This document shows, piece by piece, positions 4,662 to 21,395 of a stretch of 64,000 nucleotides of DNA. The DNA is from a virus. Within the stretch, counting starts at the first letter, position 1. Each line of letters starts with the position of its first letter. The notes under the pieces are model-generated. The model saw only the letters and a list, made by a program, of their open reading frames with translations. It searched no databases and was not told the DNA's origin. The stretch spans positions 34,574 to 98,573 of IMG/VR virus record IMGVR_UViG_3300045988_140174. One strand, given 5' to 3'. A program made the translations under genes and the position numbers.

Positions 4662-4949
4662 TACTTTTTAATCTCCTATAATAAACTAATACATTCAAAT
4701 ACAGTTTTTCTATAAATTGAGAACTCAATATCATTTAAAACATTTAGCCCTTCTAATTTACTAAGCAACTATAAAAATCGCGGGTCCTAAATAAAAATTT
4801 CATTTAAGCCCGCAATTTCAATAATAACTGTATTTAATTGTTTATCCCAATCTTCTTCATTTTCTCTCATAGGGATTAATTTCCACAGTTGATTAGTTAA
4901 TCTTACTATATTTTTCTCCATGACTTCATCAGAAATATCTGTATGATAT

Positions 4950-5537
4950 TTAGTTATCATAAGGATAATTCTTATAATGAAATACGCCCCAATTGGATTC
5001 GTATTTCCCTTCTACTAATTTACGACGTTTATATAAACGTTGCATATGGAATGATTGTCTCTAACATTCATTTAATAAAGACATCAATTTTTGTAAATGA
5101 TTAGCCTATGAAGTCATTTTAAAATCTGAACCACTATATTTCATACGAGTGTGTTCAATAGAAGTGACTTGGCGTTGTACCCAGTTCACCATCATCAATA
5201 TAGCTAAAATATTAATTTCCTCCGGTGTTAATTCAACTCCAAAAGATGAATGCTCTACCATTACACGAGGAGGGCGGATTTCTGATTCTTCATCTGTTTC
5301 ATCTTCCCACAAAAGACCAATTACAAAATCATCTTCTAATATTTCATCTTCATATTTAATTTCCTAATCAATAGTATAATCATAAATATCAAATCTAGGA
5401 AATTCAAATTCCGGCAAAATATTTAAAAGTATCGCACGCAAATCTTTAATTGTGTCTTCTGGAGTTAATTCAATATAAAGATCATCAGTAATTTTCCCAA
5501 GGAAGCGATTATAAATATCAGTGAATTTAGTTCCCAT
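4950..5537 (-). CDS. hypothetical protein, 195 aa with 3 in-frame TAG
   Basis: RBS AGGAGGCGTATC-ATG at 5537; contains track ORF 5106..5312 in frame; ends TAA 4950. Confidence 0.55.
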
Positions 5538-5558
5538 GATACGCCTCCTATTTATTTA

Positions 5559-6146
5559 TTATTCAGCAGATTTAGTTTCAGTTTGCTTTACTACTTTGTA
5601 AGCATTCCCAGATGTACGACGTCCTGCGGGAGCAGATTCTGTAACACGTCTTTCAGCTGGCTTATCTGCGATAGTTTCCTTTTTATCATCTTCTTTACTA
5701 GCGCGGTCATTTTCAATAGCCTTATCTACGTCAAAACCAGTTTTAGCTTTTAGAGCTTCACGCTTAGCCATATCAGTAATAGGTAATTGAACAGACATAG
5801 TTTTAATCAAATCAATAACTCCAATAGGAGCAAAATCAAGAGCATCTAAAAATGCATCAATAGAACCACTAAGAATTAAATCACGCACTTGCTCTTCTGA
5901 CATATTATATTCAGGCTCACGATGGACATTTAAATCATCAGTAACTTCATTTTCCATAATTTGTAAAAAATTAGCAATTAACTCACGACCGCCAGGTTGA
6001 TAAGTTAATTTTTCTAATTCACTAAATGGAATACGCTTTACTTCACCGGGTGCCCACTCACGTCTCAGATTACTCTCAGGAATTCTATATACAACAACAC
6101 TAGTACTTCTATTTTTTACATTAAACATATCTTCAGAATGAATCAT
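5559..6146 (-). CDS. hypothetical structural-module protein, 195 aa
   Basis: complete standard-code ORF with RBS. Confidence 0.7.
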   Translation of the reverse strand: MIHSEDMFNVKNRSTSVVVYRIPESNLRREWAPGEVKRIPFSELEKLTYQPGGRELIANFLQIMENEVTDDLNVHREPEYNMSEEQVRDLILSGSIDAFLDALDFAPIGVIDLIKTMSVQLPITDMAKREALKAKTGFDVDKAIENDRASKEDDKKETIADKPAERRVTESAPAGRRTSGNAYKVVKQTETKSAE

Positions 6147-6171
6147 TTTATTATCTCCTTTTTCTCTAAAA

Positions 6172-6212
6172 AAAATAAGGGGAGAGGGAGTAAATCCCTT
6201 CTCCCCTTAAAC
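6172..6212 (-). terminator. rho-independent terminator after 6235..7341
   Basis: hairpin AAGGGGAGAGGGAG-TAAA-TCCCTTCTCCCCTT plus T-run on minus strand. Confidence 0.7.
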
Positions 6213-6234
6213 AATAGTTATATTAAGGTTTTAA

Positions 6235-7341
6235 TCAAATAGTACCACTCTTACGGCCATCATAGGTAACAACCTTACCAGTAATGCCATCATAATTCCA
6301 AGTATACATTTGACCCATTAAGGAAGTGTCAACATAAGAGCAAATGTTGTTAGCCAACATACAACCAACGCCGACCTTCTTATAAACCTGAATCTCACGA
6401 GAACGATCGTAATTGCTGAATTCATCAACAATAGTTCCACCCTCGAAAGCAATCTTTACAGGCTTGCCATCAACACCAGTAGGAATAATCCAAGCGTAGC
6501 CAGGATCAATAACCTTACGAGTATTACTTTCATCTTCGAAGCCCTGCTCTAAAATAACAACCTTGGTTCCCTTATAGGTAGCCAAACGGCCAGTATTCCA
6601 CAGCTCAGTCTTCATAGCTTCAGTATAACGCCAAGCTTCATTAGGAATCATACGAACAGCAAATTCATAAGTACAATAAATAGTAGGAGTACCATAAGCA
6701 GAAGCAATAGTAATCAAACGATCCATAGCACCCTCATCAAAACCTGCTGCAGCAACGCGGTTAGCAGGAGGTAGCTGATTGATAGAAGACTTCAAAGCCA
6801 AAGCAACTTCCTTATAAATCAGTTCATCCATACCATCCATAATAATCTTGGTAACTTCAGCAAAATCAACACGACCATCTAAGAACTCTTCGAAGCCGAT
6901 TTGAGCAGCTCCACCGATAGCAGAGGTACGAACCTCAAAGCTCTCGTTCTCAGCAGGTCCCAGCTTGAAGACTTCATAGATACCAGCCAGTCCAACACGA
7001 GTCACAAACTGCTTAGCACGTGCGCGTGTGTTTAGAGGACGACGGAAAATGGGCTTATCACCCTGAGCAAACTGCTTAACTTCAGCAAACTGCTCATAAG
7101 ACTGAGAAACCTTCTTAGGAAGAACTTCATCCAAAGTCTCCTCAATCATTGAGAAAATTAGATTTTTATTTTCACGATATAGAGCATTGGTACCAGCCAG
7201 CTCATTCATCTCATTACGTAAAGTATCGTTCAGAGCCTCATAAGAAAGGTTCTGACCATTATAACTGTAAGCCACAGGAGAAGAAGGATCAGCCTTAGCA
7301 ACAGTCTTCATTAAAGCAACTAAATTGTTTCTATCTAACAT
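6235..7341 (-). CDS. putative major capsid protein, 368 aa
   Basis: size and position downstream of scaffold-like gene, strong RBS, followed by terminator; no recognisable motif. Confidence 0.5.
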   Translation of the reverse strand: MLDRNNLVALMKTVAKADPSSPVAYSYNGQNLSYEALNDTLRNEMNELAGTNALYRENKNLIFSMIEETLDEVLPKKVSQSYEQFAEVKQFAQGDKPIFRRPLNTRARAKQFVTRVGLAGIYEVFKLGPAENESFEVRTSAIGGAAQIGFEEFLDGRVDFAEVTKIIMDGMDELIYKEVALALKSSINQLPPANRVAAAGFDEGAMDRLITIASAYGTPTIYCTYEFAVRMIPNEAWRYTEAMKTELWNTGRLATYKGTKVVILEQGFEDESNTRKVIDPGYAWIIPTGVDGKPVKIAFEGGTIVDEFSNYDRSREIQVYKKVGVGCMLANNICSYVDTSLMGQMYTWNYDGITGKVVTYDGRKSGTI

Positions 7342-7358
7342 TATTCTTCTCTCCTTTC

Positions 7359-8294
7359 TTACGCAATACGTAGAATTTTAGCGCCACGTTGTCCATCAGG
7401 CATAGTATATACCTTAACAACCTGCCACTTCATATCCTGACTCTCATCTTTTACAAGAATTCCGTCAGCAGCTGCTGGAGCTAAAATATCACCAACAGAA
7501 ACACTATCTTCATTAATCATATTAGTAGTATAATGATCGCCAACATTAGTCTTGAAGACACGAGGAACCATTGCAGTACCTGGAGTCATGCGCTTCTCAT
7601 GATAAACACCAAGCTTCTTATATGGATCATTAGTCCAAGTCAGCTCTTCGTAAATGTCAGCGACATCAGTTAGAACCTTATCATAAGCATACTTTACAGG
7701 CACAGGAGTCTTAGTCTGATTGGTCTTAGGATCAATCTCATACTCTACACCATTATAAGTAAACTTATTGTCCTTAACATCATAAACTTCGCCAGCGATG
7801 GTAACAGTCTTTAGACCCTGGTCTAAAGCAACAGTGTGCTCAAGCACCTTGTGATCAGCACCAGTTTCATCAACACCATTCCAGAAACGTCCACCATATT
7901 CAACCTCGGTATGCTCCCAATCATATGGAGAATAAATACGAGCCTGATAGTCGTCCTTTAGCATAGCAAATTCGCAATCCCACTGCTTAGTTCCATCAGG
8001 ATGATCGCGATATAACTTAATCTCATTATAAACTAGCATCCACTCGCCCTTGCCAGTAAAATTCACTTCACCAATACCATTGGCATTAGCAGCGTAATCA
8101 TACTTGACAAACTGGCCGTTTTCAAGAATATTAATATTCTTGTTAGCAGGCAACTGAGCATAAATTTGAGCGGTTCTTTGTGCAGACAGGTGATTTGGCT
8201 CAACCTGACCATAACCAAACTCAACATACTTAGCCTGTGACTTAGGTGGATTTTTACCAACGCCTAAACGAGAATTTAAAAAATCCTTAAACAT
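7359..8294 (-). CDS. hypothetical head-module protein, 311 aa
   Basis: complete ORF between scaffold-like gene and capsid candidate. Confidence 0.65.
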   Translation of the reverse strand: MFKDFLNSRLGVGKNPPKSQAKYVEFGYGQVEPNHLSAQRTAQIYAQLPANKNINILENGQFVKYDYAANANGIGEVNFTGKGEWMLVYNEIKLYRDHPDGTKQWDCEFAMLKDDYQARIYSPYDWEHTEVEYGGRFWNGVDETGADHKVLEHTVALDQGLKTVTIAGEVYDVKDNKFTYNGVEYEIDPKTNQTKTPVPVKYAYDKVLTDVADIYEELTWTNDPYKKLGVYHEKRMTPGTAMVPRVFKTNVGDHYTTNMINEDSVSVGDILAPAAADGILVKDESQDMKWQVVKVYTMPDGQRGAKILRIA

Positions 8295-8312
8295 TTAAGT
8301 ATGTCCTCCTTA

Positions 8313-9902
8313 TTAGTTTTTATTGGCTGATTCTAGAACAGCCTTGACCCAAGCTGGCATTCCAGCATCTCTGTCATCATCTAAATTGCTTAAATTATAG
8401 GTAGTTGGGCCTTTATCATTATTATCATCATCAAGGTTAAAATTAACCTTGTTGCGAACACAAATAACAGAAAGTTTTGCTTCAATATCATCAACAGAAT
8501 ACTTATCAATGTTATCAATAACATCTTTCTTATCATCATCAGACAGCATATAGAATGATTGAATCATAGCTTCTTTATCCTTGCGTTCAATACTATTTTT
8601 AAACTCAGTTAAAGAAGTATTAGTTTCACTTAGAGTTTTATTTTCAGCCTCTAATAAACTAAATTTATTTTGTAATTCTTCATATTCTGCCTTTAAGCTA
8701 ACATATTCTTCAATTTCATCCAAGGAATACTTTTTCTTTTTCTTTTTATCCTCATCATCTTCTGAAGGATCGTCATCTTCATTTTCTGACTTTTGACCAT
8801 TATTTTTAGAAGAACCATCATCTTTTTTGTTCTCAGGGTCGCCAGAATTATTGCCCTTATCATCGTTTGCCTTTTTATTTTCTTCTTCTTCTTGCTTTTT
8901 CTTAAATTCGGCTTCATAAGCTTCAACCGCATCTAAAGCAAACTGAGGCTCTGCTACTGGAGTATAAGATTTAGTTACTTCAATTAAACCTTCACCAGGA
9001 ACAAGACCATCAGAATCACTCAAAGAAAAGTTTAAACGATAATATTTCATATCTCCGCGGTCTTGAAGAATAGCAAATTTCTGACTATTATCTTCAAAAA
9101 CGCCATCAATACGATATTTAGAGCAATAATTGTTAGAGCCATCAGGGAAAGCCTTATTTACATATTCCCATAAAGCACTCCATAGAGAATCTCCGATTTC
9201 TACGGCATATCTATTAAACACTTTTGCTCCTCCTTCTTTTAATAATTCTTTTAGTTCATTCATCATTGAGTATAGTTCATTTTTAAAACTATCATCAAAT
9301 GAAAAAGAAAACTTTGTAATAGAGGAGCCTTCGAAGCAAGGTTCACACTCTTCTCCTAAAATACAAAGTTTAGAAATAATTGCTTCATTAATAATGAAAA
9401 ACTACGGCTTTCCATTATTATCTTTCGTCCAAGTTCCATCTAAAGTACCTTCATCGAGCTCCATAGAATGATTATTACCTTGCTCGATGATGCGCTTACA
9501 TTCTGGATATTGGCCGGTCCATAAATATCCTTCAGTCATAAGATATTCATGTTCATTAACGCCATCATCTAAAAATTTCTAAAACCAAACCTTGGCACCT
9601 AAATCTACAAAACCATAAGGTTTAGTAGTGTCTTTCATTTCAAACTTTCCGTTTGAAATATCAATAATTCTATTGTGTTCCTCAAAATCTCCATTAGATT
9701 CATTATAAAAACCAACAATAGGACTGCCAGGGAGACTATTAGCCATCTCCCTCGCAGTTTCTTTAGAAATAATGCTTCGATTGCGATTTGGCTCATCCCC
9801 AACGTAGCAAACTTTAATTTGGCATTTAGAAATCAAAGGATTAATAGGAGTTACATTAATAAATTCACAAGGCGTTTCAAGTTTAATACTTTGATGCTTC
9901 AT
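8313..9902 (-). CDS. scaffold-like protein with acidic K/E/D-rich coiled-coil C-terminus, about 529 aa, 2 in-frame TAG
   Basis: track ORFs 9579..9902 and 8313..9266 are in the same frame and joined by TAG read-through; C-terminal low-complexity KKKQEEEENKK.../DDDPSEDDEDKKKKKK. Confidence 0.5.
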
Positions 9903-9913
9903 GATTTACCTCC

Positions 9914-11575
9914 TTAATTCATTGACTCTTTATTTTTTATGGTTTTTTCACTTTTCTAATCATCAGCCTTTTCAGGTCGCCCAGACTATTTTGTTTCAGT
10001 AGTCTGTTTTGTAGTAGTCTATTGATTACTACTTCCTGAATTATTTTGTGTTTTATTCTAATTGTTTGAACCTTTATTACCCAAAACATCTTGACTACTC
10101 ATAGTAGAAGACATTAATGGTGGGATCATAATTTCAGTTAATTTCAACACATCATTTTCAAATACCGCAGTATTTAAAATAAAACTCTAAGAGTGACCAA
10201 GAGCAATTTGAGGTAGCATCTTAGAATAACCAAGTTGCGTTTGTTCTTTATATAATTTTGACATTTCTTTATAATTATATTGTGTAGTTTCAAGCATATA
10301 AAATTTAAAACTATATTTCTTATTATTCGCAACTTTCATCTTTACTATTCTATCAAAAAAAATGTTAAATTGCAACAACAAGTTTCTAACAGTTGATTCA
10401 TCATTAAGGATAGACTTCTCTAATGATAAATTACCATCAGTATTAAATAGATTTTGAGAAATACCTAAATTATTATAAACAGTACGCTCAACTTTTGCTA
10501 AATCATCTGTAGTAGTTGTAGTATTTTTATCTGATAAATCAATAGATTGAACATCAGTAAATGTTGTTAAAACATCAACACCAATAGCTCTTGATAACAT
10601 AGCAACAGCATTATTATGTATATCACGAGATTCATCAATATCAAATATTAAATCACCATTTTTATCCATGGGAAGTTTTTGAACAATAATTTTTAGCAAC
10701 TTCTACATTTGTTTTCTGCGGTCTAAATCTTGAGCAGCATCTAAATCCATAAGAGCAGGAATAGAATTAATAAATGGTGGAGTATCGCTACCATTAAAAT
10801 TAAATTTCACACTTAATTCTGGAGATAGTAAATACCAACTTCCACTATAATCTCCCTTAATATCAGGAAGTAATTTTCCTTTCTTATATAAAACATATCC
10901 GCGCTAAAATTCTTCGGGGAATAATTTTAATACGCGCATACGATAATTAGGATCTGGAAACTAATCAAAAAACCGCATATCAAACTCAATTGCTGGCATA
11001 CCAGCCACAAAGTATCTAGAACGGCAATAGCTAGCAGGCAATTCTTGTAGCATTAAACTATTTGCAGATTGCACTATATATCCATAATAGCAACCATTTT
11101 TCATAATACTTTGAGCAATATCACCGCAGATTTTTTTAATATAAGTATTATCTAAGTAATTTAATAACTTTGAAAAATCTTTTAAAACTTTTTCATCTTT
11201 TACCGTATCATCTAAAATTTCTGGAGCGACATACCAATCATATCTATACAAATAAGCAAAATAATTACATACTCGCTCATAAATGCCGCTAATATCATAA
11301 AATAAATTAGAAATTCTACGCATTTCAACAATATCACGATTTATCATAGCTCGTAATACATCATTTTTAGTGACCATGCGACATGGTCCACGACGATTAG
11401 GATATAGTCGAGCGAATGACCCTAAATCTAATACAGCATCATCTAATGTTTGAACCCCAACTTTTATCTTACGATATTCTGTTGGATCAGCAGTTCGATA
11501 ATCACTTGTTCCATTGCTGATATTAAATCCTTTGGAGTGGATGATTTCCTAACGTGATAATTCTTTAGTATCCAA
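9914..11575 (-). CDS. portal-protein candidate, about 553 aa, 3 in-frame TAG
   Basis: RBS AAGGAGGTGG + TTG start at 11575; includes track ORFs 10961..11377 and 10187..10699 in frame; located right after terminase; size typical of portal. Confidence 0.5.
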
Positions 11576-11587
11576 AATTCCACCTCC

Positions 11588-11944
11588 TTAATATCCAGCT
11601 AATTGCATTATATAATCATATGTAATAAGATTTTCATCTGTATAAGGAATCTCTATTAATTTAAAATCATGTAAAGCGCAAAAACGTCGTTTTTGATTAT
11701 CATTATATTGTTGTTGATATAAACCTTTTTTACCACCAAATTTCGCGCTAGGCTCATAGTGCTATTTACCCTAATATTCAATAATAAAATCAATTCTACC
11801 ATCATCATCAAAAACGACAAAATCGAAACGTAAGGGTCTACCACTTGGTGCCTTCAAATCTGGAAAAATATATTCCATCTTAAATGGTAATTCAGCTTGT
11901 CGCAAAATTTCTTCAATTTTAATTTCGCCTCTAGACGCTCTCAT
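11588..11944 (-). CDS. small PD-(D/E)xK-like endonuclease (homing-endonuclease-like), 118 aa, 2 in-frame TAG
   Basis: motif RFDFVVFDDDGRIDFIIEY*GK*HY...IEIPY, paralogous to the C-terminus of 40812..41741; lies between terminase and portal genes. Confidence 0.55.
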
Positions 11945-11954
11945 AATTACCTCC

Positions 11955-13688
11955 TCAATTCAAGAAACACCAATCTTTAGCATTAAACTTTTTACGTTTC
12001 TTCTTTTTATCTTCTTCTAATTTTAAATAATATAGTCCATATTCAAAAGCAGAAAATTTATCTTTTCGGATACTTTTATTTGCTTGCTTCAGGATAATAT
12101 TTACTCCTTCAGTTTCTTCACGTAAATTCATCATTTCTTCTTTTAATATGGAAGTTAATGTAAATGGTTTTAATTCTTCTGCCCTCTATTCTGGAGTCAT
12201 AGTTTGACCTTTCTTTTTAGCAAGAAGTTTATTTTTTGCTACGCGCTCATCAATTAAAAATTTCACTTTTCCAGAAGCAAGTTGTGATTTAGCAATCGCG
12301 TGGGCCTCTGTGTTGAGTGGCGCATTAGCTTTTATAATATACATAGCATCTAATACTGTATTAGATGTTTTATATTTTTTATAAAATAAATCATCGTCAT
12401 TAACAACACCAAAATCAGGGAAAATTTCATTGGTTTCAGGGTCAATCTACGTCTTAACCATATAATCAATTAAACCAATTCCTAAACCATTACCATCAAT
12501 TACAATTCTATCAGCATTATATTTATAATATAATTTTTTTAATTTAATAGTTTGGTCTTCAAAATGTTCATCAGATAATGTATATATATTTACTAAACTT
12601 TTAATTGAACCACCTTGTGATTGTGGAGTTACTTTAAATACACAAATAACTGAATCGCATCCTTTACGACCAACATCGACAGCAAGTACATAAGATGCTA
12701 ATTTTGAATTACGCCCGGATGCTTCATATTCAGGCTAATTTAATATTCTATTTCTATCAAATATTTCAGCATTAAAAAATGCATCTTCTACTGTGCCAGA
12801 CCATTTACTTTCATACTCTCGGTCAAATGAACTTTCATTGAACGTTCCGTCCATTTTTAAGTCTTTAATAAAATTCGCATCTAACAATTTCATTAAAACA
12901 GGAATACGATAAGTACCACCCATAATAATAGATTGCTAAGGTTTAACAATCTCCCAAACTAATAATTGGATTAATTTATCATAGGGGAAAGTATTTTTAT
13001 ATCCAGCAGTAGTAATATAAATTTGAGATTTATTAAGAGTTTCATCAGGTTGAGTAGTACCATCCATACACATACGAGAAATATTCATTGTAGGAATAAT
13101 AACTTGTGATAAAATATCGCCATCAACGCCAACACACTCTTCAATTAAACCACCATGGCGACGTTTACCACGAGAAGACTCTCTCGCGGCAATATTATCA
13201 AAATATGAACCATTTTTAAATACATATTTAACATAATCCTTACCTTCAAGTGTCTAACCACGGCGCCAATCTATTTCTTTCTAAAATGCAGGAATAAGAG
13301 TACAAATTTCTTGAACTTTTTCTTTTACAATTCCAGCCGCTTGTTCTTTACCACCAGAAGTAATAAATAATTTACATCTGGGGTATAAAATCGCACGACA
13401 CATTAAGACCATCATTGACAAAAAAGATTTTGAATAAGCACGAGGGAATACAGCATAAATATATTTATGACGCATCGCAGCGCGCAAAAAGATTCTCTAA
13501 TAAAAATAGAGTTTAAAATGTTGAGGGCCGCCATCAGGTCCTGCCATAAAGTCGATAAACATATCTGGATATTCTCTCCAAAAGGCTATGTACTGTCTTG
13601 CTTCTGGTATAATCGCACGAAGACGGTCCTCTGAAATTCCAATCTTTTTACGCTTCTAAGATAAATCAAGTAAATCCTATAAAGCCAT
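11955..13688 (-). CDS. terL: terminase large subunit, 577 aa, about 10 in-frame TAG
   Basis: N-terminal ATPase region (CKLFITSGGKEQAAGIV) and RNaseH-like nuclease region (LAVDVGRKGCDSVICVFKV...VIDGNGLGIGLIDYM); track ORFs 13281..13487 and 12735..12923 share the frame; ends TGA. Confidence 0.85.
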
Positions 13689-13689
13689 A

Positions 13690-14886
13690 TTATCCTTCTA
13701 AATTCCTTAAAGTCTGAGCGTCTATTTCAGACTCTTCCTCAAGGAAATCATTATATTCAATTAAATCTTCATCTTTAAGATGATCGATTTCCTCCATCGT
13801 TAAATCTTCTTCAATATCTTGGTCTTCTTCTTTATTTTCTTCTTCTTGCATTTTCTTAATAGCCCCTTCAATGAGATTACCTAAATTCATCTCTTCGGTG
13901 ACTAATGTGTGTGTATAGTTCTTTAAATCTTGTAAAGTTTCATCAACTTTATCTTTTGGACCTTCTGTATAATAACGAGGAATAAATCCTTCAGTTTCAC
14001 ACATGGCCACTAATTCTCCAATAGAATCAAATGCTTCTCCTGTATCTGCTTTGTTTTGAGCGGCGGTGAAATTACCTGATTTCATTAGACTATCATAAAC
14101 CTTGCTCATCTTTTGGAAACCTTCGATATCACCAATATCGATCAACTAGTTTGCTTTTAAGGATGTCTTACAAATTAATTTTAATGTATCAATATGACCA
14201 GCGCCACGGATATCATAAGAACTCATCATTTCTTCATAGAGTTGCTCTAGTTTAACCCATTCTTCGGGTTTATATGCTTTACCCCACTTCATACGAAGAT
14301 ATAAAATATCTTCTTCTGTTAAATCGAGGTCATCTGCTGGGTCATGTTCAATACCATTCTATTGATCAAAATAATCATCACCATCTCTAAAACGTTCTGG
14401 TAATTCAGGAGTGTAAGGTTTTAATTCTTCTTCTGGAATAGCGACAGTAGATTTAGCAATAGCTGTTGCTATTTGCTGGGCATCATAGCCTTGTCGTTTC
14501 ATAGTTTGTTCTAATTTATTATTAGCCACTTCCTATAAAAACTCAGAATCTTTCCATCGATAATCTCTATATTGTTTAAGTTTCATTTTGGACAAATATC
14601 TACCTAAAATACTCATACCAGTTAATTTAGATTTATCTTGTCCATATTTTACCATTAATTTACTCCACTCATCTGGAACATAAGGTACATCAATTTCTTG
14701 TAGAATCCACATATAAGTTTCTGGATTCCAATTATCTACAAGCATTGTAATACATTTTTTACATTGAGGGAGTTTTCCATCATTTGGATATTTTTCTAAA
14801 TTATTAGATGTATAAAACTGGTCAGCGCCCATAGTTCTATTACATCGTTCGCAATAATATACTTTTTTATCATTATCTACAGTCAT
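13690..14886 (-). CDS. zinc-ribbon protein with acidic C-terminus, terminase small subunit candidate, 398 aa, 2 in-frame TAG
   Basis: immediately upstream of terL; N-terminal CERC...CKKC; track ORFs 14533..14886 and 13690..14145 joined in frame. Confidence 0.4.
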
Positions 14887-14928
14887 AATTTTCCTCCTTA
14901 TATCTATCCAATAACAGGCATCTCAAAA

Positions 14929-15993
14929 TTATAACTGTTTGCCCTTGTTTTTAGCATTACGGCATTTTTTACAAATACTATAATAACCATCTTTGCTAGT
15001 TTTATTTTTGCTAAAATATTTATTATGTGCTAATTTAATTTGCCCACAGCGACTACATTTTTTATATTTACCTTTTGCTTTATGTAAATAATAATCATAT
15101 AGGTATTGGTCTTCAGCCGCAGAGGCGATTAATTTTGGAATTTTATTGCGCCATAAACTAGAAATATATTCTAAACTATGAGTAATATTAAATTCCTCTT
15201 GAATTTTCTTTTGAATGTCTATATTCTATAATCCATCAATTTTATATTCAACTATTCTATCATATAAGGGATAATCTTTAAGAGCAATGGTACATAAATT
15301 ATCGAAATCTTCCATAATATACCATAAATCTCTTTCAAAATCTCCCCAACTATCTTGCTTTAAACGAGAATAATTACATAAAATTGCAGAACATACTCTA
15401 GGGTCTAAGAGTGAAACGCCATCCGGAATTGGATAACCATCATCATCAAAAATACAAGTCGTGTCCTCTAATGGAATAAAATTTCTTGAACGAGTAATTT
15501 TAGTCATAACAATTGGACGACGAACTGCATTTTTAATAACATACTAATCTTTACGCATTTCAATAATAGCACGTTTAATTATAAATGCCTCGCGTCCTTC
15601 GCTAACTCGTAATTTGGCTTCCCAAGTAGTAATGGCGTCTCTTAACTATTTTAAATGAGGTATTTCTTCTATATCTTTTTTAGTAATTGTAATTTTAGGC
15701 TAAAATATTGTATTTTTATTTTCAGTAATTAAATTATAAATTCCATCTTCGCCATTCTCAAATTGGGAAACAAGACCTTCAAAAGATGTTTCACGTTTAT
15801 TAACTGTTGCCATACGATTATCAGTTAATAATTTACGCTCCTTTTTCTCTTGTTTCTCCATACAAAGAATGATATAGTCCCCTAATATTTCTAAATATCG
15901 AGGAGAGGGGTCTGGGGTTTCCTCTAATATTTTCTTGACTAATTCATTTCTTTCTTCTGGAGTTTGTAAGGAATAATCTAATTTTATCATCAT
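14929..15993 (-). CDS. hypothetical protein with C-terminal zinc ribbon (CSRCGQ...CKKC), 354 aa, 3 in-frame TAG
   Basis: track ORFs 15700..15993 and 15226..15507 in same frame, continued through TAGs to TAA at 14929. Confidence 0.5.
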
Positions 15994-16018: not shown

Positions 16019-16047
16019 ATTATACAAAAAATTTTTCCAGGTGTCAA
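16019..16047 (-). promoter_or_regulatory. sigma70-type promoter for the minus-strand late operon
   Basis: TTGACA-17-TGTATAAT on the minus strand. Confidence 0.6.
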
Positions 16048-16161: not shown

Positions 16162-16560
16162 ATGGTAATTGCTATTATTATATTAAGTATATTATTAATA
16201 TTATCTATTATATATAATATATTGTTTACAAAAGGAGTCGCTAAACTTCTTGACCCTGAAAACATTGAACAAAAATATAATTTAATAGCAGATTATTATG
16301 GAGATGCAAATAATATTGAAGAAAGTTTTCCTTGTTGTTTACTATTACATCTCCAATTTAATGCGAAAAAGTCCGCGAAAATTACAGACTTCTCTAATTA
16401 TGAAAATTCTAATATAATCGCTTATTCAGTTTTGTCCAAGGGCCCGCCACCGCCTGGATACGCCAATCAACTGGAAGAAGACGGCTCTATAAGAATATTA
16501 GTCCGCAATGTTCGAGTAAATAAATATAAGGATGGTGAATATTTTTGGGAGCCTATGTAA
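16162..16560 (+). CDS. membrane-anchored hypothetical protein, 132 aa
   Basis: RBS AAAAGGAGAAG; N-terminal transmembrane helix. Confidence 0.6.
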   Translation: MVIAIIILSILLILSIIYNILFTKGVAKLLDPENIEQKYNLIADYYGDANNIEESFPCCLLLHLQFNAKKSAKITDFSNYENSNIIAYSVLSKGPPPPGYANQLEEDGSIRILVRNVRVNKYKDGEYFWEPM

Positions 16561-16751
16561 TTGTTATCTTTTGGATAATCATTTCAGCATTAGTAATGTT
16601 TGAATATATTGATGCAATTCAAAGCGCCGGTGAAAATAAATTAATTGTTTGTCTAATATTTTTTATTGGTGGCCCAATATTTGCTGCGAGTGATTTATTA
16701 CAAAGAATTTTAGATATATTTTTACCGGAAGGGTGGAATGGTGATGACTGA
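16545..16751 (+). CDS. small membrane protein, 68 aa
   Basis: two hydrophobic helices; overlaps the upstream stop. Confidence 0.5.
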   Translation: MGAYVIVIFWIIISALVMFEYIDAIQSAGENKLIVCLIFFIGGPIFAASDLLQRILDIFLPEGWNGDD

Positions 16752-16770
16752 AAAATAGATTAAATATATT

Positions 16771-17070
16771 TTGAAAAATTTTAAACGAGGCACTACTATT
16801 CTATTTATGGGTGTATCATTTAATCAATATATTAATCTTGAACAATTAACTGAAGCAGGATATACTTGTATCTTATTGGGTGAAGGTCAAGATTATTGGC
16901 CATATATTCAAGATAATATGATTATTTATGTAGATAATATTGATATTAAAATTATGCGATTAAATTGTTATCCGTTACATTGCCCTATTTTTGTATATGA
17001 TAAAAATCGAGTAATGAATGCAGAAGATAGAGACGTGCGCGTTTGGGCAGAAGTGTTAAACGAGGAGTAA
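16771..17070 (+). CDS. hypothetical protein, 99 aa
   Basis: ORF with RBS. Confidence 0.55.
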   Translation: MKNFKRGTTILFMGVSFNQYINLEQLTEAGYTCILLGEGQDYWPYIQDNMIIYVDNIDIKIMRLNCYPLHCPIFVYDKNRVMNAEDRDVRVWAEVLNEE

Positions 17071-17071
17071 T

Positions 17072-17365
17072 ATGAAGATTTATAAATATTTAATTGAAAC
17101 TCCAGGGTCAACTCATATTATGGATCATCTGACTGATATTGTATCTACTGGATTAGATGTAAATAATAATCCATGCGTATGGGCAGTTTATGATGAAAAA
17201 GCACCCAAAAAATATTTCCAGATTAATGCTGTTGGCACAGGTTGGGAATTGGATAAATATGTAAATAATAATGATAAGTATTTAGGAGTTATTAATGATG
17301 GCGAGTATATTTGGCATATCATTAAGTCTTCTGGAGAAAAATGTCATATAATGGAGGAGAAGTGA
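17072..17365 (+). CDS. hypothetical protein, 97 aa
   Basis: RBS AACGAGGAG; overlapping start/stop. Confidence 0.55.
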   Translation: MKIYKYLIETPGSTHIMDHLTDIVSTGLDVNNNPCVWAVYDEKAPKKYFQINAVGTGWELDKYVNNNDKYLGVINDGEYIWHIIKSSGEKCHIMEEK

Positions 17366-17369
17366 TTTT

Positions 17370-17687
17370 ATGGAAGATGGAAAAAATTATTTTGATATTG
17401 TAATGCGAGAAGGTCAAGCAATAGTTCATAATGAAGGTTCTATTCATTAGGTTGATAGTTTAGGCCGTCTTGTTTTTCCTAAAAATTTAAGACAAAAATA
17501 TGGTATTACTCCTGGCGACCGTATGGAATTTTATACTATTGAATATAATGGTGAAGTTTATGTTGGAGTGCGAGTGAGTAAACGATATGGTAGTAGAATA
17601 GAGTATTTACGCGCTAAAGAAGTATTAGATGATTTGGGAATTGAAATTCCTCAAAAATTAACCGATGCTATTAATGGAGTAATGTAA
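17370..17687 (+). CDS. AbrB/MazE/SpoVT-family DNA-binding protein, 105 aa, 1 in-frame TAG
   Basis: swapped-hairpin motif VDSLGRLVFPKNLRQKYGITPGDRMEF; RBS GGAGGAGAAG. Confidence 0.7.
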
Positions 17688-17688
17688 T

Positions 17689-17832
17689 ATGCCTAAATAT
17701 AAAAGTTTTGGAAATGCCCTTGCTGCTAAAATGCAGAAAAAGGCTAATTATTATGCTACTAAAGCAGTTCATCAAATTGTATGGGGTGAAAACCCTAAAC
17801 GTGGTCGTCCTAAGAAGGAGAATAAGAAATGA
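17689..17832 (+). CDS. small basic protein, 47 aa
   Basis: ATG overlapping the upstream stop; K/R-rich C-terminus. Confidence 0.4.
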   Translation: MPKYKSFGNALAAKMQKKANYYATKAVHQIVWGENPKRGRPKKENKK

Positions 17833-19212: not shown

Positions 19213-19241
19213 TTGACAAATTGCCCTATGTGTGCTACAAT
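19213..19241 (+). promoter_or_regulatory. promoter TTGACA-17-TGCTACAAT
   Basis: consensus -35, TG-extended -10. Confidence 0.6.
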
Positions 19242-19271
19242 GATTACAGTAAAACAAAGGAGGACGATACA

Positions 19272-19508
19272 ATGTCTAACATCTATGGAGTCTGCTACAC
19301 CACCAAAGAGCCTGTTGTCTACAACAGAGGGACACAGTGGGAGAAAACCTGTTCCGATTTCCTGTTCGTTCAGGCAAACAAGGACAATGGCACAGAGCTG
19401 GTGGACAAACTGAACGCTATGCTCGCCGAGGGTGTGGAAAAGTACGAACTGCTGGACATGACCAAGATTGACCATTTCTATCTTGACAAGTCCGAGGAAA
19501 TGTATTAA
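19272..19508 (+). CDS. hypothetical protein, 78 aa
   Basis: RBS AAGGAGGACGATACA-ATG; track ORF 19200 starts upstream of the promoter, so the internal Met is used. Confidence 0.6.
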   Translation: MSNIYGVCYTTKEPVVYNRGTQWEKTCSDFLFVQANKDNGTELVDKLNAMLAEGVEKYELLDMTKIDHFYLDKSEEMY

Positions 19509-19521
19509 GGAGGAACTGACA

Positions 19522-19710
19522 ATGACACGCACTATCGCTAATACCTACATCTGTATCAACAACGAGGGACAGACGCTCTCCATCATCGCCCGCACGGGCA
19601 ACGAAGCCCACAACATCGCAATAGGGTTTTTGCGGAAAGCCAACATCGTGAGCGTTCGTCGTGTATTCAAGTCCGGCAAGCTGGGCAAGGAAATTCTGAA
19701 AATTAAATAA
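19522..19710 (+). CDS. hypothetical protein, 62 aa
   Basis: RBS AAGGAGGAACTGACA-ATG. Confidence 0.6.
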   Translation: MTRTIANTYICINNEGQTLSIIARTGNEAHNIAIGFLRKANIVSVRRVFKSGKLGKEILKIK

Positions 19711-19716
19711 AATAAA

Positions 19717-19740
19717 CAGGGCGCAAGCCCTGTTTTTTTT
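19717..19740 (+). terminator. intrinsic terminator (GCAA tetraloop)
   Basis: CAGGGCGCAAGCCCTG + T8; identical hairpin repeated at 19992. Confidence 0.8.
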
Positions 19741-19750
19741 GAAAAAACTA

Positions 19751-19779
19751 TTGACAAATCCCGAAATAGGTGTTATACT
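19751..19779 (+). promoter_or_regulatory. promoter TTGACA-17-TATACT
   Basis: consensus spacing. Confidence 0.6.
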
Positions 19780-19811
19780 AAATACAGAAATTAAGAAATG
19801 AGGTAAACACC

Positions 19812-19991
19812 ATGAACACTAATTCTAATCTTTCCAACACCGCTTTCCAGTCCCTGCTCCGCACAATCCGCAACTATCGCGAAACATCTCGCCCGTTCTC
19901 CGCAATCACTACTTACAATGAGTTTTTTGACCGCATGAGCCAGGAACAGCGGGAAGAAGCGTATGAAGCACTCACCGGTAAATTGAATTAA
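19812..19991 (+). CDS. hypothetical protein, 59 aa
   Basis: RBS GAAATGAGGTAAACACC-ATG; below the ORF-track size cutoff. Confidence 0.5.
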   Translation: MNTNSNLSNTAFQSLLRTIRNYRETSRPFSAITTYNEFFDRMSQEQREEAYEALTGKLN

Positions 19992-20018
19992 CAGGGCGCA
20001 AGCCCTGTTATTTTTTTT
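19992..20018 (+). terminator. intrinsic terminator
   Basis: CAGGGCGCAAGCCCTG + T-run. Confidence 0.8.
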
Positions 20019-20038
20019 ATAAAATGCGAAAAAAACTA

Positions 20039-20067
20039 TTGACAAACACAAATAAGCGTGTTATAAT
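20039..20067 (+). promoter_or_regulatory. promoter TTGACA-17-TATAAT
   Basis: perfect consensus hexamers. Confidence 0.65.
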
Positions 20068-20099
20068 GAATACAGAAATTAAGAAATGAGGTACACAAA

Positions 20100-20288
20100 A
20101 TGAAGAACATCTATGAAATCGAGAACATCATCGACGAAATCCCCGCTGATGACTGGGCTGGCATTTGTAATTTGATGGACTACTACTATCAGTCGAATTT
20201 CTCCGCTGACGCTGAACAGAGACTGGCAAGGGCAATCGCTCCTTACGGCTTGACCGCAGAGGAAATCCTGACCTGGGACGCTGAATAA
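20100..20288 (+). CDS. hypothetical protein, 62 aa
   Basis: RBS GAAATGAGGT; same leader (AATACAGAAATTAAGAAATGAGGT) as gene 19812. Confidence 0.6.
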   Translation: MKNIYEIENIIDEIPADDWAGICNLMDYYYQSNFSADAEQRLARAIAPYGLTAEEILTWDAE

Positions 20289-20325
20289 GCGTCCTATTTT
20301 TTTGCTGTTGGATTGTTAAAATTTT

Positions 20326-20398
20326 AATGAGCATCGTCGCGCTCATCAGGCACGTGGCGCCCCGAAATATTATACCACAGCAGTCCACCAGTTGTCAA
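20326..20398 (-). promoter_or_regulatory. antisense-oriented promoter (TTGACA-18-TGGTATAAT on minus strand) firing toward a hairpin + T-run (20326..20345)
   Basis: rc of 20369..20398 gives a consensus promoter; ATGAGC-N8-GCTCAT + TAAAATTTT downstream on the minus strand. Confidence 0.5.
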
Positions 20399-20456
20399 GA
20401 GAAAAATGCGAAAATTTCGCACAAAATTTGCTATCCCGATTTGTATAGTTTGCCAA

Positions 20457-20485
20457 TAGACAAAATAAAATAAGCGTGTTATAAT
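20457..20485 (+). promoter_or_regulatory. promoter TAGACA-17-TGTTATAAT
   Basis: extended -10. Confidence 0.5.
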
Positions 20486-20518
20486 GAATACAACAAAACA
20501 ACAAAGGAGATACACAAC

Positions 20519-20827
20519 ATGATTAACATTCGTTCTATCCGCAAGCTGGGCAACAATGACGGGCTGACCCTCAAAATGGGCAAAAAGGTAAACTATAAAT
20601 CCGGCTGGCAGGTTGCCACAGAGGGCATCGAGTGCAAGACCGCACAGGAAGCCATTGACGCGGTGAGAGACTACGGCGGAAATTGTGGCGTGTGGTTCAG
20701 CGAGGGCATTTACTACATCGACAAGAGCAAGCGCGTGGCGACAAAGTGTGAAGCTATGGAAATCGGCAAAGCGTGCAATCAAATTTCCGTGCTGAAATGG
20801 GCGACTATGACGCTTGCCTACTGTTAA
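20519..20827 (+). CDS. hypothetical protein, 102 aa
   Basis: RBS AAAGGAGATACACAAC-ATG. Confidence 0.65.
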   Translation: MINIRSIRKLGNNDGLTLKMGKKVNYKSGWQVATEGIECKTAQEAIDAVRDYGGNCGVWFSEGIYYIDKSKRVATKCEAMEIGKACNQISVLKWATMTLAYC

Positions 20828-20832
20828 AATAA

Positions 20833-20858
20833 TAGGGCGAAAGCCCTATTTTTTTTTT
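20833..20858 (+). terminator. intrinsic terminator (GAAA tetraloop)
   Basis: TAGGGCGAAAGCCCTA + T10. Confidence 0.8.
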
Positions 20859-20879
20859 GAAAAAATTTTGAAAAAGGTA

Positions 20880-20908
20880 TTGACAAATCCCGAAATAGGT
20901 GCTATAAT
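20880..20908 (+). promoter_or_regulatory. promoter TTGACA-17-TATAAT
   Basis: consensus. Confidence 0.65.
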
Positions 20909-20939
20909 TAAACCATCAAATGAAGGAGGTCGCAAGACT

Positions 20940-21104
20940 ATGATGACTACTGTAAAGACTCCTGACGGCGTGCCCCCTGTTAAGCCTCTGTCCTATGTGC
21001 TGGGCGATGACTGGACGTACCTTTACAGCGATAGCTGGAAAGGCGTTGAATTCGACGTTCACGCGTGTATGAACGGCGAGGTTGTCGCAGTAGTCGAGGG
21101 TTAA
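20940..21104 (+). CDS. hypothetical protein, 54 aa
   Basis: RBS AAGGAGGTCGCAAGACT-ATG; the track ORF N-terminus would include the promoter. Confidence 0.55.
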   Translation: MMTTVKTPDGVPPVKPLSYVLGDDWTYLYSDSWKGVEFDVHACMNGEVVAVVEG

Positions 21105-21132
21105 TCCCTCGGTTATTTTTTTTATTTTTTTT
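21095..21132 (+). terminator. intrinsic terminator overlapping the stop codon
   Basis: CGAGGGTTAATCCCTCG + T-rich run. Confidence 0.6.
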
Positions 21133-21142
21133 GAAAAAACTA

Positions 21143-21393: not shown

Positions 21394-21395
21394 GA

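What the first reader, a model, noticed from the sequence alone, without database searches (positions are those of the whole stretch)
11955..13688. In-frame TAG codons in conserved late genes: amber stop-codon recoding confined to the AT-rich segments
The terminase large subunit is a single 577-codon frame with recognisable ATPase and nuclease motifs only if about 10 TAG codons are read as sense. The same holds for the portal, scaffold and capsid-region genes, the AbrB-like regulator, the FkbM methyltransferase (6 TAG) and the radical SAM enzyme (4 TAG). No gene in the 36.5-60 kb plus-strand operons needs TAG read-through, and at least one gene there appears to terminate at TAG (52166). This fits a suppressor-tRNA (code-15-like) system that is switched on late. 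No suppressor tRNA is visible in this window.
Basis: partly seen in the sequence, partly recalled or inferred. Interest (0 to 1): 0.75.

Follow-up and report, generated by a model that had tools for sequence, protein, structure and literature searches.

The report
Amber-recoded (TAG=Gln) gut phage late genes
This window is part of a ~197 kb human-gut phage that reads the TAG stop codon as glutamine in its packaging, virion and accessory genes, using its own suppressor tRNA encoded about 20 kb outside the window. The phenomenon is real but already well described (genetic code 15).

Summary
Window 11955-13688 (-) is one 577-codon terminase large subunit frame with 9 in-frame TAG, no TAA or TGA, ending in TGA. 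In a 109-gene set, 26 genes carry 88 in-frame TAGs.

TAG means glutamine. At 52 TAG sites in 13 late genes, 26 standard-code relatives have Gln as the majority residue at 31 sites, and 59% of all aligned residues are Gln. Strains with an identical TerL protein differ by a CAG/TAG swap at codon 32.

The missing suppressor exists. Five conspecific genomes carry a Gln-like tRNA with anticodon CUA, behind a perfect host-type promoter, in a ~31-tRNA array that starts 9 kb beyond the window.

Recoding is concentrated in AT-rich late and accessory modules. It is nearly absent from a GC-rich block of small genes, most of which have their own consensus promoter. There are exceptions. AT-richness is not specific to recoding, because non-recoded sister lineages are equally AT-rich. 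The most abundant virion genes are TAG-free.

The "switched on late" step is inferred, not shown.

This is a new member of a known kind (Borges et al.; Babkin et al. 2023, phAss-1). Interest is modest.

The parts
11955..13688 (-). Terminase large subunit gene: 577 codons, 9 in-frame TAG, stop TGA. TAG codons lie at 13677-79, 13656-58, 13497-99, 13281-83, 13254-56, 12936-38, 12735-37, 12447-49 and 12186-88. Codon 32 (13593-13595) is CAG here and TAG in conspecific strains.
1..15993 (-). Late packaging and virion operon, mean GC3 0.22. 11 of 15 genes carry TAG (51 in all). They include portal 9914-11377 (8), YonD_N-like 8313-9902 (2), 3507-4661 (7), YomV-like 2154-2882 (8), YomW-like 2882-3484 (2), endonuclease-like 11588-11944 (2) and 13690-14886 (3). 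The window start cuts a further gene that holds about 9 TAG.
14929..15993 (-). First gene of the late operon: 354 aa, 4 in-frame TAG, C-terminal zinc ribbon. PHROG 5767 is annotated 'sigma factor'. Its identity is unresolved (sigma-like/HTH protein or small terminase).
16019..16047 (-). Perfect sigma-A-type promoter TTGACA-17-TATAAT, 26 nt upstream of the first late gene. A divergent 11/12 promoter lies on the + strand at 16103-16131.
   Evidence: TTGAC[A/T]-17-TATAAT is conserved, with a diverged spacer, in both recoded and non-recoded relatives.
1050..8294 (-). TAG-free abundant virion genes inside the late operon: tail tube (YomU-like) 1050-2126, 5559-6146, YonB-like probable major capsid 6235-7341, and 7359-8294. 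Together they have 0 TAG, 24 CAG and 13 CAA. The recoded genes that lie between them in this range are listed under the late-operon part.
   Evidence: Fisher p = 1.5e-13 against the other late genes. The same pattern is seen in 10 recoded relatives.
16162..17832 (+). Small AT-rich plus-strand genes next to the late promoter, including AbrB/MazE-like 17370-17687 (1 TAG) and 16744-17070 (1 TAG).
19213..33231 (+). GC-rich block (GC 0.45-0.5, GC3 0.63) of 28 small genes, with 1 in-frame TAG in 2851 codons. It holds 23 plus-strand and 4 minus-strand consensus or near-consensus sigma-A promoters; most of the plus-strand ones lie about 31 nt upstream of a gene. Presumed immediate-early region.
33650..35970 (-). 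AT-rich minus-strand genes. 3 of 4 carry TAG (11 in all), including an HTH/sigma-region-4-like protein at 35407-35970 with 7 TAG.
36554..60046 (+). Plus-strand block, GC about 0.40, 49 genes outside the island, with 3 in-frame TAG in 6801 codons (50294, 52166, 59626). Stops are TAA 31, TGA 18.
40661..41741 (+). AT-rich island (GC about 0.3) inside the plus-strand block. 40812-41741 (309 aa, Cys-rich repeats plus an endonuclease-like C-terminus) has 6 TAG; 40661-40822 has 1.
52166..52168 (+). TAG within TAGGAGG, the Shine-Dalgarno sequence of gene 52179-53669. Seven codons follow before TAA. It is either a true TAG terminator or a harmless read-through.
59626..59628 (+). TAG 32 codons before the TAA of gene 58165-59727, conserved in close strains. 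Stop or sense is undecided.
60065..64000 (+). Start of a very AT-rich (GC 0.20-0.26, GC3 0.11), TAG-rich accessory cassette behind a near-consensus promoter (60065-60093). Genes: 60126-60827 (1 TAG), FkbM methyltransferase 60831-62018 (6), radical SAM 62021-62974 (4), 63033-63470 (0), and 63473 onward (2 or more). The cassette continues about 9 kb beyond the window and is replaced by another TAG-rich cassette in a conspecific strain.

Best explanation
The window is about one third of a ~190-200 kb tailed phage from human-gut metagenomes. The phage has an SPbeta-like virion module.

Its packaging genes, many virion genes, several regulator-like genes and AT-rich accessory genes use TAG as a glutamine codon (genetic code 15). 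TAA and TGA remain the only terminators.

Decoding is by a phage-encoded tRNA with anticodon CUA. It most resembles tRNA-Gln, the same kind of change as the classical E. coli supE suppressor (established knowledge). It lies in a ~31-tRNA array that begins 9 kb beyond the window's 3' end.

The block of small genes that have their own host-type promoters contains almost no TAG, so unmodified host ribosomes can translate it. TAG-containing genes can give full-length protein only once enough suppressor tRNA is present to outcompete release factor 1.

Shown:
- The recoding itself.
- The Gln identity of TAG.
- The suppressor tRNA in conspecific genomes.
- The genome-wide avoidance of TAG as a terminator.
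- The partition of TAG among modules.

Inferred:
- That the same tRNA is on this very contig.
- That it is charged with Gln.
- That the partition acts as a timer for late proteins.
For: 1. TerL has 9 TAG, 0 TAA and 0 TGA in frame over 577 codons.

2. Allowing TAG as sense raises coding density from 0.69 to 0.90 in 1-16.1 kb, from 0.09 to 1.00 in the 40.75-41.8 kb island, and from 0.47 to 0.83 in 60-64 kb. Density does not rise at all in the 17.7-33.3 kb block and rises only slightly in the 36.5-40.75 and 41.8-60 kb blocks.

3. At 52 TAG sites in 13 late genes, compared with 26 non-recoded relatives, Gln is the majority residue at 31 sites and is the only residue seen in every aligned relative at 16. 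Overall 753 of 1272 aligned positions are Gln.

4. TerL TAG columns in 59 relatives hold only CAA, CAG or TAG at the FYQR motif.

5. Strains with identical TerL protein carry TAG where the window has CAG at codon 32.

6. Radical SAM TAG sites fall on the HPQF and DCNQIP motifs of homologs.

7. A 72-74 nt tRNA-CUA lies at a conserved position between tRNA-Val and tRNA-Tyr in five conspecific genomes. It scores 55 bits on the Rfam tRNA model. Its nearest non-self tRNA is a relative's tRNA-Gln(UUG).

8. The window is 100% identical to ENA ERZ28568875 scaffold_17, whose tRNA array begins identically.

9. In the public code-15 calls, none of the 83 genes without an in-frame TAG has a TAG terminator; counting the ambiguous sites 52166 and 59626 gives at most 2 of 85. 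Non-recoded relatives use TAG for 13% of stops.

10. 27 of the window's 31 consensus or near-consensus host-type promoters lie in the TAG-free GC-rich block.

11. Public gene calls on this contig are already full length: 577 aa TerL, 395 aa methyltransferase, 317 aa rSAM.

12. The literature describes the same architecture: Borges et al. preprint 10.1101/2021.08.26.457843, Babkin et al. PMC10607447, Peters et al. PMC9523058.
Against: - The suppressor tRNA was read from conspecific IMG/VR genomes (TerL 99.8-100% identical in protein, 96-98% in DNA; flanks 97% identical in DNA), not from the window's own contig.
- No protein-level or expression data exist.
- The suppressor, the late operon and the AT-rich cassette all sit behind host-type consensus promoters. 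Nothing in the sequence shows late activation.
- A few TAGs occur in the presumed early and middle blocks.
- Non-recoded sister lineages manage with the same late promoter, so recoding is not required for timing.
- At 21 of 52 TAG sites the relatives' majority residue is not Gln. These are variable positions with E, K, T or D.
- No release factor or aminoacyl-tRNA synthetase gene was seen near the tRNA, and about 95 kb of the genome was not examined.
Confidence: 0.85

Rival explanations
1. Code 15 is used throughout infection, with no functional early/late switch. The suppressor is made from the start. The uneven distribution of TAG only reflects codon bias: GC-rich or highly expressed genes prefer CAG, and AT-rich genes drift from CAG to TAG.
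For: - The suppressor has a perfect host-type promoter like the presumed early genes.
- TAG replaces CAG specifically.
- TAG-free genes include the most abundant late virion proteins, not only early genes.
- TAG is avoided as a terminator genome-wide.
- A few TAGs exist in the middle block.
Against: - The GC-rich block has 1 TAG against 79 CAA+CAG, and the middle block has 3 against 157.
- Regulator-like genes are heavily recoded.
- The literature model favours a switch, although that model is itself an inference.
Confidence: 0.3
2. TAG is decoded as an amino acid other than glutamine. ARAGORN labels the tRNA 'Pyl', so pyrrolysine is one candidate; Tyr, Ser, Leu or Trp are others.
For: - ARAGORN's label is based on the anticodon only.
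- At 21 of 52 sites the relatives' majority residue is not Gln.
- A distant relative (L031) carries a 91-nt type-II CUA tRNA that resembles Ser or Tyr tRNAs.
Against: - 59% of aligned residues are Gln, and 16 sites show only Gln in every aligned relative.
- CAG/TAG polymorphism occurs between strains with identical proteins.
- The tRNA is an ordinary 74-nt cloverleaf with a 5-bp anticodon stem. It is closest to tRNA-Gln and has G73 and an unpaired 1-72 position.
- The array otherwise lacks an intact tRNA-Gln.
Confidence: 0.03
3. The TAGs are damage or artefact: a decaying prophage, sequencing or assembly errors, a chimeric assembly of AT-rich and GC-rich genomes, or frameshift sites.
For: Standard-code calling fragments the genes. 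GC content jumps by up to about 30 points between segments.
Against: - Only TAG interrupts the frames, never TAA or TGA.
- No frame change is needed.
- The same TAG positions and the same AT/GC junctions recur in independent assemblies from different samples: ERZ28568875, ERZ27261223, ERZ27229841, ERZ28568765, Logan runs and IMG/VR.
- The 27-63 nucleotide differences in TerL leave the protein identical (L099, L046) or one residue different (L042) when TAG is read as Gln.
Confidence: 0.01

Closest known systems
Code-15 (TAG to Gln) recoded gut phages: crAss-like, Lak and the 'gemstone' clades (Borges et al., preprint 10.1101/2021.08.26.457843; metaproteomic validation in Peters et al. 2022, PMC9523058)
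   Same: - In-frame TAG in structural and packaging genes.
- A phage suppressor tRNA-CUA.
- Only part of the genes recoded: 24% here, 26% reported for the Sapphire clade.
- Low GC.
- Recoded and standard-code lineages interleaved within one clade.
- Large genome (~197 kb, the size range given for the large clades).
   Different: - Membership of any named clade could not be tested, because no reference sequences are held.
- No lysis genes were identified in the window, so the reported bias of lysis genes could not be checked.
- The most abundant virion proteins are TAG-free here.
- The suppressor has its own consensus host-type promoter.
- No release factor or synthetase was seen near it.
Phage phAss-1 and the proposed Phassvirus group (Babkin et al. 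2023, PMC10607447; NCBI taxon 'Caudoviricetes code 15 clade')
   Same: - Human-gut origin.
- TerL, portal and tail genes split by TAG.
- TAG falls on conserved Gln positions.
- tRNA-Sup-CTA together with a large tRNA set.
- TerL is related: 44% identity over 92% of the length.
- Both are related to Enterococcus phage EF1-type TerL.
   Different: - Genome ~197 kb against 136 kb.
- One CUA tRNA found so far, against three in phAss-1.
- TerL is only 44% identical, so this is not the same genus.
- phAss-1 TerL has far fewer in-frame TAGs (2 within the part that aligns to other TerL, against 9 here), and at different positions.
E. coli supE (glnV) amber suppressor (established knowledge, not tested here)
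   Same: A tRNA-Gln whose anticodon reads UAG and inserts Gln in competition with RF1.
   Different: supE is a host mutation giving partial suppression. Here the tRNA is a conserved phage gene that serves dozens of essential genes.
Bacillus phage SPbeta virion module
   Same: Precomputed Pfam hits to YonD_N, YonB, YomW, YomV_2nd and YomU_Tube, in the same gene order downstream of TerL and portal.
   Different: SPbeta uses the standard code and is a 134 kb temperate phage. No integrase or YonO RNA polymerase was seen in the window.

Membership tests
Genetic code 15 (TAG = Gln) phage | Conserved genes are intact only if TAG is read as sense; TAA and TGA still terminate | tested here: met
   TerL has 9 TAG, 0 TAA and 0 TGA. 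26 of 109 genes carry 88 TAG; stops are TAA 81 and TGA 28.
Genetic code 15 (TAG = Gln) phage | TAG positions correspond to glutamine in standard-code homologs | tested here: met
   31 of 52 sites have a Gln majority and 59% of aligned residues are Gln. TerL columns hold CAA, CAG or TAG only. A CAG/TAG polymorphism occurs at codon 32. rSAM sites fall on HPQF and CNQIP.
Genetic code 15 (TAG = Gln) phage | Genome encodes a suppressor tRNA with anticodon CUA | tested here: met
   Found in five conspecific genomes at a conserved position, and it is Gln-like. It was not read from the window's own contig, which could only be followed to the first six tRNAs of the array.
Genetic code 15 (TAG = Gln) phage | Gln is actually incorporated at TAG (peptide evidence) | not testable with these tools
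   No proteomic data are available.
Temporal code switch (Borges et al. model) | Early genes are compatible with the host code; late structural and lysis genes need the new code | tested here: inconclusive
   The partition exists, and the TAG-free GC-rich block is full of host-type promoters. However, timing is inferred, no lysis genes were identified, and the major virion proteins are TAG-free.
Temporal code switch (Borges et al. model) | Code-change machinery (suppressor tRNA, with or without a release factor or synthetase) is expressed before the recoded genes | tested here: inconclusive
   The suppressor has its own perfect consensus promoter. No RF or aaRS lies within about 8 kb. About 95 kb of the genome was not examined.
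Proposed genus Phassvirus (phAss-1) | About 80% or more nucleotide identity and shared synteny with phAss-1 | tested here: not met
   TerL is only 44% identical in protein. Genome size is 197 kb against 136 kb.
Pyrrolysine decoding of TAG | An atypical tRNA-Pyl and TAG positions not tied to a standard residue | tested here: not met
   The tRNA is a standard cloverleaf scoring 55 bits on the Rfam tRNA model. It is closest to tRNA-Gln, and TAG aligns with Gln. The pyl genes were not searched genome-wide.
SPbeta-like virion module | Homologs of SPbeta YonB, YonD, YomU, YomV and YomW in order | tested here: met
   Precomputed Pfam hits on the source contig's gene products. The local Pfam copy lacks these newer families.

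The most novel reading that the evidence does not exclude
In this clade the amber code, not transcription, may be the main timer of late protein synthesis.

The late operon, the AT-rich accessory cassette and the suppressor tRNA all sit behind host-type consensus promoters. Delay would then come from the build-up of tRNA-CUA against RF1.

The first late gene (PHROG 'sigma factor', 4 TAG) and an HTH protein (7 TAG) would be translationally gated regulators. The major capsid and tube genes would be kept strictly TAG-free because suppression is leaky.

Recoded and standard-code sister lineages share the same late promoter, which offers a natural experiment.
Probability: 0.2. Interest if true: 0.55.

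Novelty: new member of a known kind. Interest (0 to 1): 0.3.

Why it matters
For annotation, a standard-code gene caller shreds about a quarter of this phage's genes, including TerL and portal. The window must be called with table 15.

For biology, the finding adds a large, very abundant gut-phage clade to the recoded phages. One late gene family alone has 6925 metagenomic members.

In this clade, recoded and non-recoded lineages alternate at 75-85% protein identity. Early genes carry textbook promoters, and the suppressor tRNA has its own promoter. That makes the clade a convenient system for asking what times the code switch and why abundant proteins avoid the recoded codon.

The phenomenon itself is already established.

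Tried and rejected
1. A search for a tRNA or any Rfam family in the window found none.

2. At first sight 18-33 kb looked like a 15 kb non-coding stretch, with no long ORF under any code. I rejected this: it is densely packed with 47-218 aa genes, most with their own promoter.

4. The local Pfam copy gave no hits for the virion proteins. The precomputed newer Pfam families on the source contig were used instead.

5. A theta or HDV-like ribozyme next to the suppressor tRNA (the idea of PMC10879173) gave no Rfam match, even at E = 10.

I used the search for homologous proteins instead. Those homologs are partly translated with code 15 themselves, so they are not fully independent.

7. I tried to decide whether the TAG at 59626 is stop or sense. 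It is conserved in all close strains, which is uninformative.

8. I tested whether AT-richness explains recoding. It does not: non-recoded relatives are equally AT-rich.

9. The exact-match look-up for gene 47745-48479 failed because of a wrong start codon.
Full report
**The observation.** The minus strand of 11955-13688 translates as one continuous terminase-like protein interrupted only by asterisks. All nine interruptions are TAG, and the frame ends in TGA. The same stretch has 25-77 stop codons of all three kinds in each of the other five frames, so a 577-codon frame free of TAA and TGA is not chance.

The protein is a terminase large subunit. It is 52.6% identical over 93% of its length to the annotated TerL of Enterococcus phage H1. 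It is 49.7% identical to that of Geobacillus virus E3 and 44% to a region of phage phAss-1 that GenBank annotates as three fragments. It also hits PHROG terminase families.

**Where the window comes from.** The window is 100% identical to ENA metagenome contig ERZ28568875 scaffold_17, which is 197,687 bp. Near-identical contigs of 118-198 kb occur in other samples and in IMG/VR. This rules out assembly chimeras and sequencing errors.

The public gene calls on that contig are already full length: TerL 577 aa, methyltransferase 395 aa, radical SAM 317 aa. The source pipeline therefore already used a TAG-sense table. The virion genes carry Pfam families built on Bacillus phage SPbeta: YonD_N, YonB, YomW, YomV and YomU_Tube.

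**Extent of the recoding.** I transferred the public calls to window coordinates, giving 109 genes. Of these, 26 contain 88 in-frame TAGs. All terminators are TAA (81) or TGA (28).

By module:

| Module | Genes with TAG | In-frame TAG | Mean GC3 |
|---|---|---|---|
| Late minus-strand operon, 1-16 kb | 11 of 15 | 51 | 0.22 |
| 33.6-36 kb minus-strand genes | 3 of 4 | 11 | 0.25 |
| AT-rich island, 40.66-41.74 kb | 2 of 2 | 7 | 0.18 |
| Cassette, 60.1-64 kb | 3 of 4 | 11 | 0.11 |
| GC-rich block, 19-33.3 kb | 1 of 28 | 1 (2851 codons) | 0.63 |
| 36.5-60 kb block outside the island | 3 of 49 | 3 (6801 codons) | 0.42 |

Reading TAG as sense raises coding density from 0.69 to 0.90, from 0.09 to 1.00 and from 0.47 to 0.83 in the late operon, the island and the cassette. 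It does not raise density at all in the 17.7-33.3 kb block and raises it only slightly in the 36.5-60 kb blocks.

Two statements need correction:
- The capsid-region genes are not uniformly recoded.
- The 36.5-60 kb block has exceptions: 40812-41741, 40661-40822, 50030-50395 and 58165-59727.

**What TAG encodes.** IMG/VR holds 78 loci with a TerL 63-98% identical by tblastn. Of the 60 full-length sequences I aligned (window included), half have no TAG and half have 1-13.

At the window's TAG columns the relatives carry CAA, CAG or TAG. At the invariant FYQR motif the counts are 26, 15 and 18 respectively.

I extended the test to 52 TAG sites in 13 late genes, compared against 26 non-recoded relatives by tblastn. 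Gln is the majority residue at 31 sites and the only residue seen in every aligned relative at 16. It accounts for 753 of 1272 aligned positions.

Two conspecific strains have a TerL protein identical to the window's once TAG is read as Gln. They differ at 27-50 nucleotides, and one of those differences is CAG (window, 13593-13595) against TAG at codon 32.

The radical SAM TAG sites fall on the HPQF and DCNQIP motifs of homologs. This carries a caveat: some of those homologs may themselves have been translated with code 15.

TAG therefore means glutamine.

**The suppressor tRNA.** The window has no tRNA. On the same contig, however, a tRNA array starts 9 kb past the window end. I walked along five conspecific IMG/VR genomes. 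Each has about 31 tRNAs covering 19 amino acids, plus a 72-74 nt tRNA with anticodon CUA between tRNA-Val and tRNA-Tyr.

ARAGORN labels this tRNA 'Pyl' from the anticodon alone. In fact:
- It is an ordinary cloverleaf scoring 55 bits on the Rfam tRNA model.
- Its closest non-self tRNA is the tRNA-Gln(UUG) of a related phage.
- It has G73 and an unpaired U1-U72.

The only other Gln-like tRNA in the array is interrupted by an insertion of about 120 nt in its anticodon loop.

No release factor or synthetase gene lies within about 8 kb of the suppressor. The remaining ~95 kb of the genome was not examined.

**Is it a late switch?** The sequence gives indirect evidence in both directions.

For a partition by timing:
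- The TAG-free GC-rich block holds 27 of the window's 31 consensus or near-consensus TTGACA-17-TATAAT promoters. Twenty-three are on the plus strand, many have a TGn extended -10, all are intergenic, and most lie about 31 nt upstream of a small gene. This is the classical look of an immediate-early region read by unmodified host RNA polymerase.
- In the public code-15 calls, none of the 83 genes without an in-frame TAG has a TAG terminator; counting the ambiguous sites 52166 and 59626 as stops gives at most 2 of 85. Non-recoded relatives use TAG for 13% of stops (P between about 1e-5 and 7e-4). The whole genome has therefore been purged of TAG stops.

Against a simple late switch-on:
- The suppressor tRNA has its own perfect consensus promoter, conserved in five genomes.
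- The first late gene also has one, conserved across recoded and non-recoded relatives while the spacer diverges.
- The AT-rich cassette has a near-consensus one.

Transcription of the suppressor and of the recoded modules therefore looks host-driven. Any delay would have to arise from tRNA accumulation against RF1, or from repressors not identified here.

Non-recoded sister lineages keep the same late promoter, so recoding is at most an added layer of control.

**Two further patterns.**

First, AT-richness is not specific to recoding. Non-recoded relatives have the same low TerL GC3 (about 0.2). What changes is that TAG takes the place of CAG: mean CAG count is 2.3 against 7.9, with CAA unchanged. 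This fits C-to-T drift at CAG becoming tolerable once a suppressor is present.

Second, the most abundant virion genes contain no TAG. These are the tube gene 1050-2126, 5559-6146, the YonB-like gene 6235-7341, and 7359-8294. Together they have 24 CAG and 13 CAA. The other late genes have 51 TAG, 10 CAG and 86 CAA (Fisher p = 1.5e-13). The same avoidance holds in ten recoded relatives from several lineages. The simplest reading is that suppression is less efficient than ordinary decoding and is selected against where output must be maximal. This is an inference.

**Phylogenetic pattern.** In a neighbour-joining tree of TerL, recoded and non-recoded lineages are interleaved, which implies several gains or losses. 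Borges et al. report the same thing for their clades.

**Comparison with what is known.** Everything central here has been described:
- TAG-to-Gln recoding of late genes with phage suppressor tRNAs in gut phages, and the proposed path from low GC, through loss of TAG stops and gain of a suppressor, to in-frame TAG in structural and lysis genes (preprint 10.1101/2021.08.26.457843).
- Metaproteomic proof in crAss-like phages (PMC9523058).
- A TerL-related lineage, phAss-1, with the same signature (PMC10607447). NCBI files it under 'Caudoviricetes code 15 clade'.

The present phage is not a Phassvirus. Its TerL is 44% identical and its genome is 197 kb against 136 kb. Whether it belongs to one of the named large clades could not be tested.

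**Verdict.** The timing claim is plausible but unproven. This is a new member of a known kind, of modest interest.

The most novel reading not excluded is that translation gating by the amber code is the principal timer in this clade. That would include gating of TAG-containing regulator-like genes: 14929-15993, whose sigma-factor assignment I could not confirm, and 35407-35970.

Noticed in passing
window 19213-32824: 27 consensus or near-consensus sigma-A promoters lie in 14 kb: 23 on the plus strand and 4 on the minus strand. They have the form TTGACA-17-TATAAT, many with a TGn extended -10. All are intergenic, and most of the plus-strand ones lie about 31 nt upstream of a 47-218 aa gene of unknown function. 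Three of the minus-strand copies (21539-21567, 28167-28195, 29908-29936) have no called gene downstream. The block is GC-rich (0.45-0.5, GC3 0.63) inside an AT-rich genome.
   Followed up: partly
window 34885-35503: A dense array of ACAACCA / TGGTTGT motifs includes three or so 80-bp tandem units (35227-35477) and short palindromes of the form ACAACCAAAATGGTTGT. It overlaps the 3' end of, and lies downstream of, the HTH gene 35407-35970 (minus strand). Copy number differs between strains: the window has one more 80-bp unit than L038 and L041. It may be an iteron-type origin or an operator array.
   Followed up: partly
L033 10760-10953 (conspecific genome, about 0.9 kb upstream of the tRNA-CUA); the same sequence is in L018, L034, L035, L036 and L037: A tRNA gene is interrupted by an insertion of about 112-124 nt in the anticodon loop. 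The insertion is closed by a CGAGAAA/TTTCTCG stem. Joining CUUU|GAC gives tRNA-Gln(UUG), and the joined sequence is closest to a relative's tRNA-Gln. The insertion is too short for a group I intron and has no Rfam match. Otherwise the array has no intact tRNA-Gln.
   Followed up: partly
L031 10979-11069 (IMGVR_UViG_3300028591_000104, a distant relative): A 91-nt type-II tRNA with a long variable arm has anticodon CUA, C1-G72 and A73. It is most similar to Ser and Tyr tRNAs and sits alongside normal tRNA-Gln(CUG) and tRNA-Gln(UUG) genes and a tmRNA. It may be an amber suppressor that inserts something other than Gln.
   Followed up: no
window 60094 to the end, continuing in L012 to about 18830; compare L018 697-9780: The AT-rich TAG-rich cassette (FkbM methyltransferase, two radical SAM enzymes, a GT8 glycosyltransferase, and others) is replaced by a different cassette in a conspecific strain. 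The replacement is equally AT-rich (GC 0.18-0.34) and TAG-rich, and the flanks are 97% identical. This is a hypervariable accessory locus whose gene pool is itself code-15 adapted.
   Followed up: partly
window 1050-8294 and relatives L048-L115: The major virion genes (YonB-like, its two neighbours and the tube gene) are TAG-free in the window and almost entirely so in ten recoded relatives (three single TAGs in the two neighbour genes), while neighbouring genes carry 1-13 TAGs.
   Followed up: yes
window 11588-11944 (-) and 40812-41741 (+): Two TAG-containing genes share a C-terminal endonuclease-like motif (RFDF...IEY/FD..KQH). One is inserted between portal and TerL. The other forms an AT-rich island in the plus-strand block and carries N-terminal CxCxCG repeats. 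They are probably mobile homing-endonuclease-type genes. A separate HNH_3 gene at 43847-44527 has no TAG.
   Followed up: no
window 53804-55543 and 58165-59727: Two large paralogous proteins (579 and 520 aa, PHROG 18912, unknown function) share the SxHPLDY and WNSKKWRC motifs and have Cys-rich C-termini. The antisense strand of the first carries a 779-codon stop-free frame (53750-56089), which appears to be a by-product of codon bias.
   Followed up: no
L033 5253-8954 and 16667-18196 (tRNA array of a conspecific genome): Genes interspersed with the tRNAs include a sodium:dicarboxylate symporter family transporter (E = 2e-90), a formate/nitrite-transporter-like protein, a papain-like protease and a DUF2828/DUF7788 protein. 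Two further perfect consensus promoters precede tRNA-Leu(taa) and tRNA-Gly.
   Followed up: no
window 14929-15993: This late-operon head gene belongs to a family with 6925 members at E <= 1e-5 in the metagenome protein collection. None has a Pfam domain, and one is labelled 'antirestriction protein' by JGI. The phage clade is evidently very abundant.
   Followed up: partly
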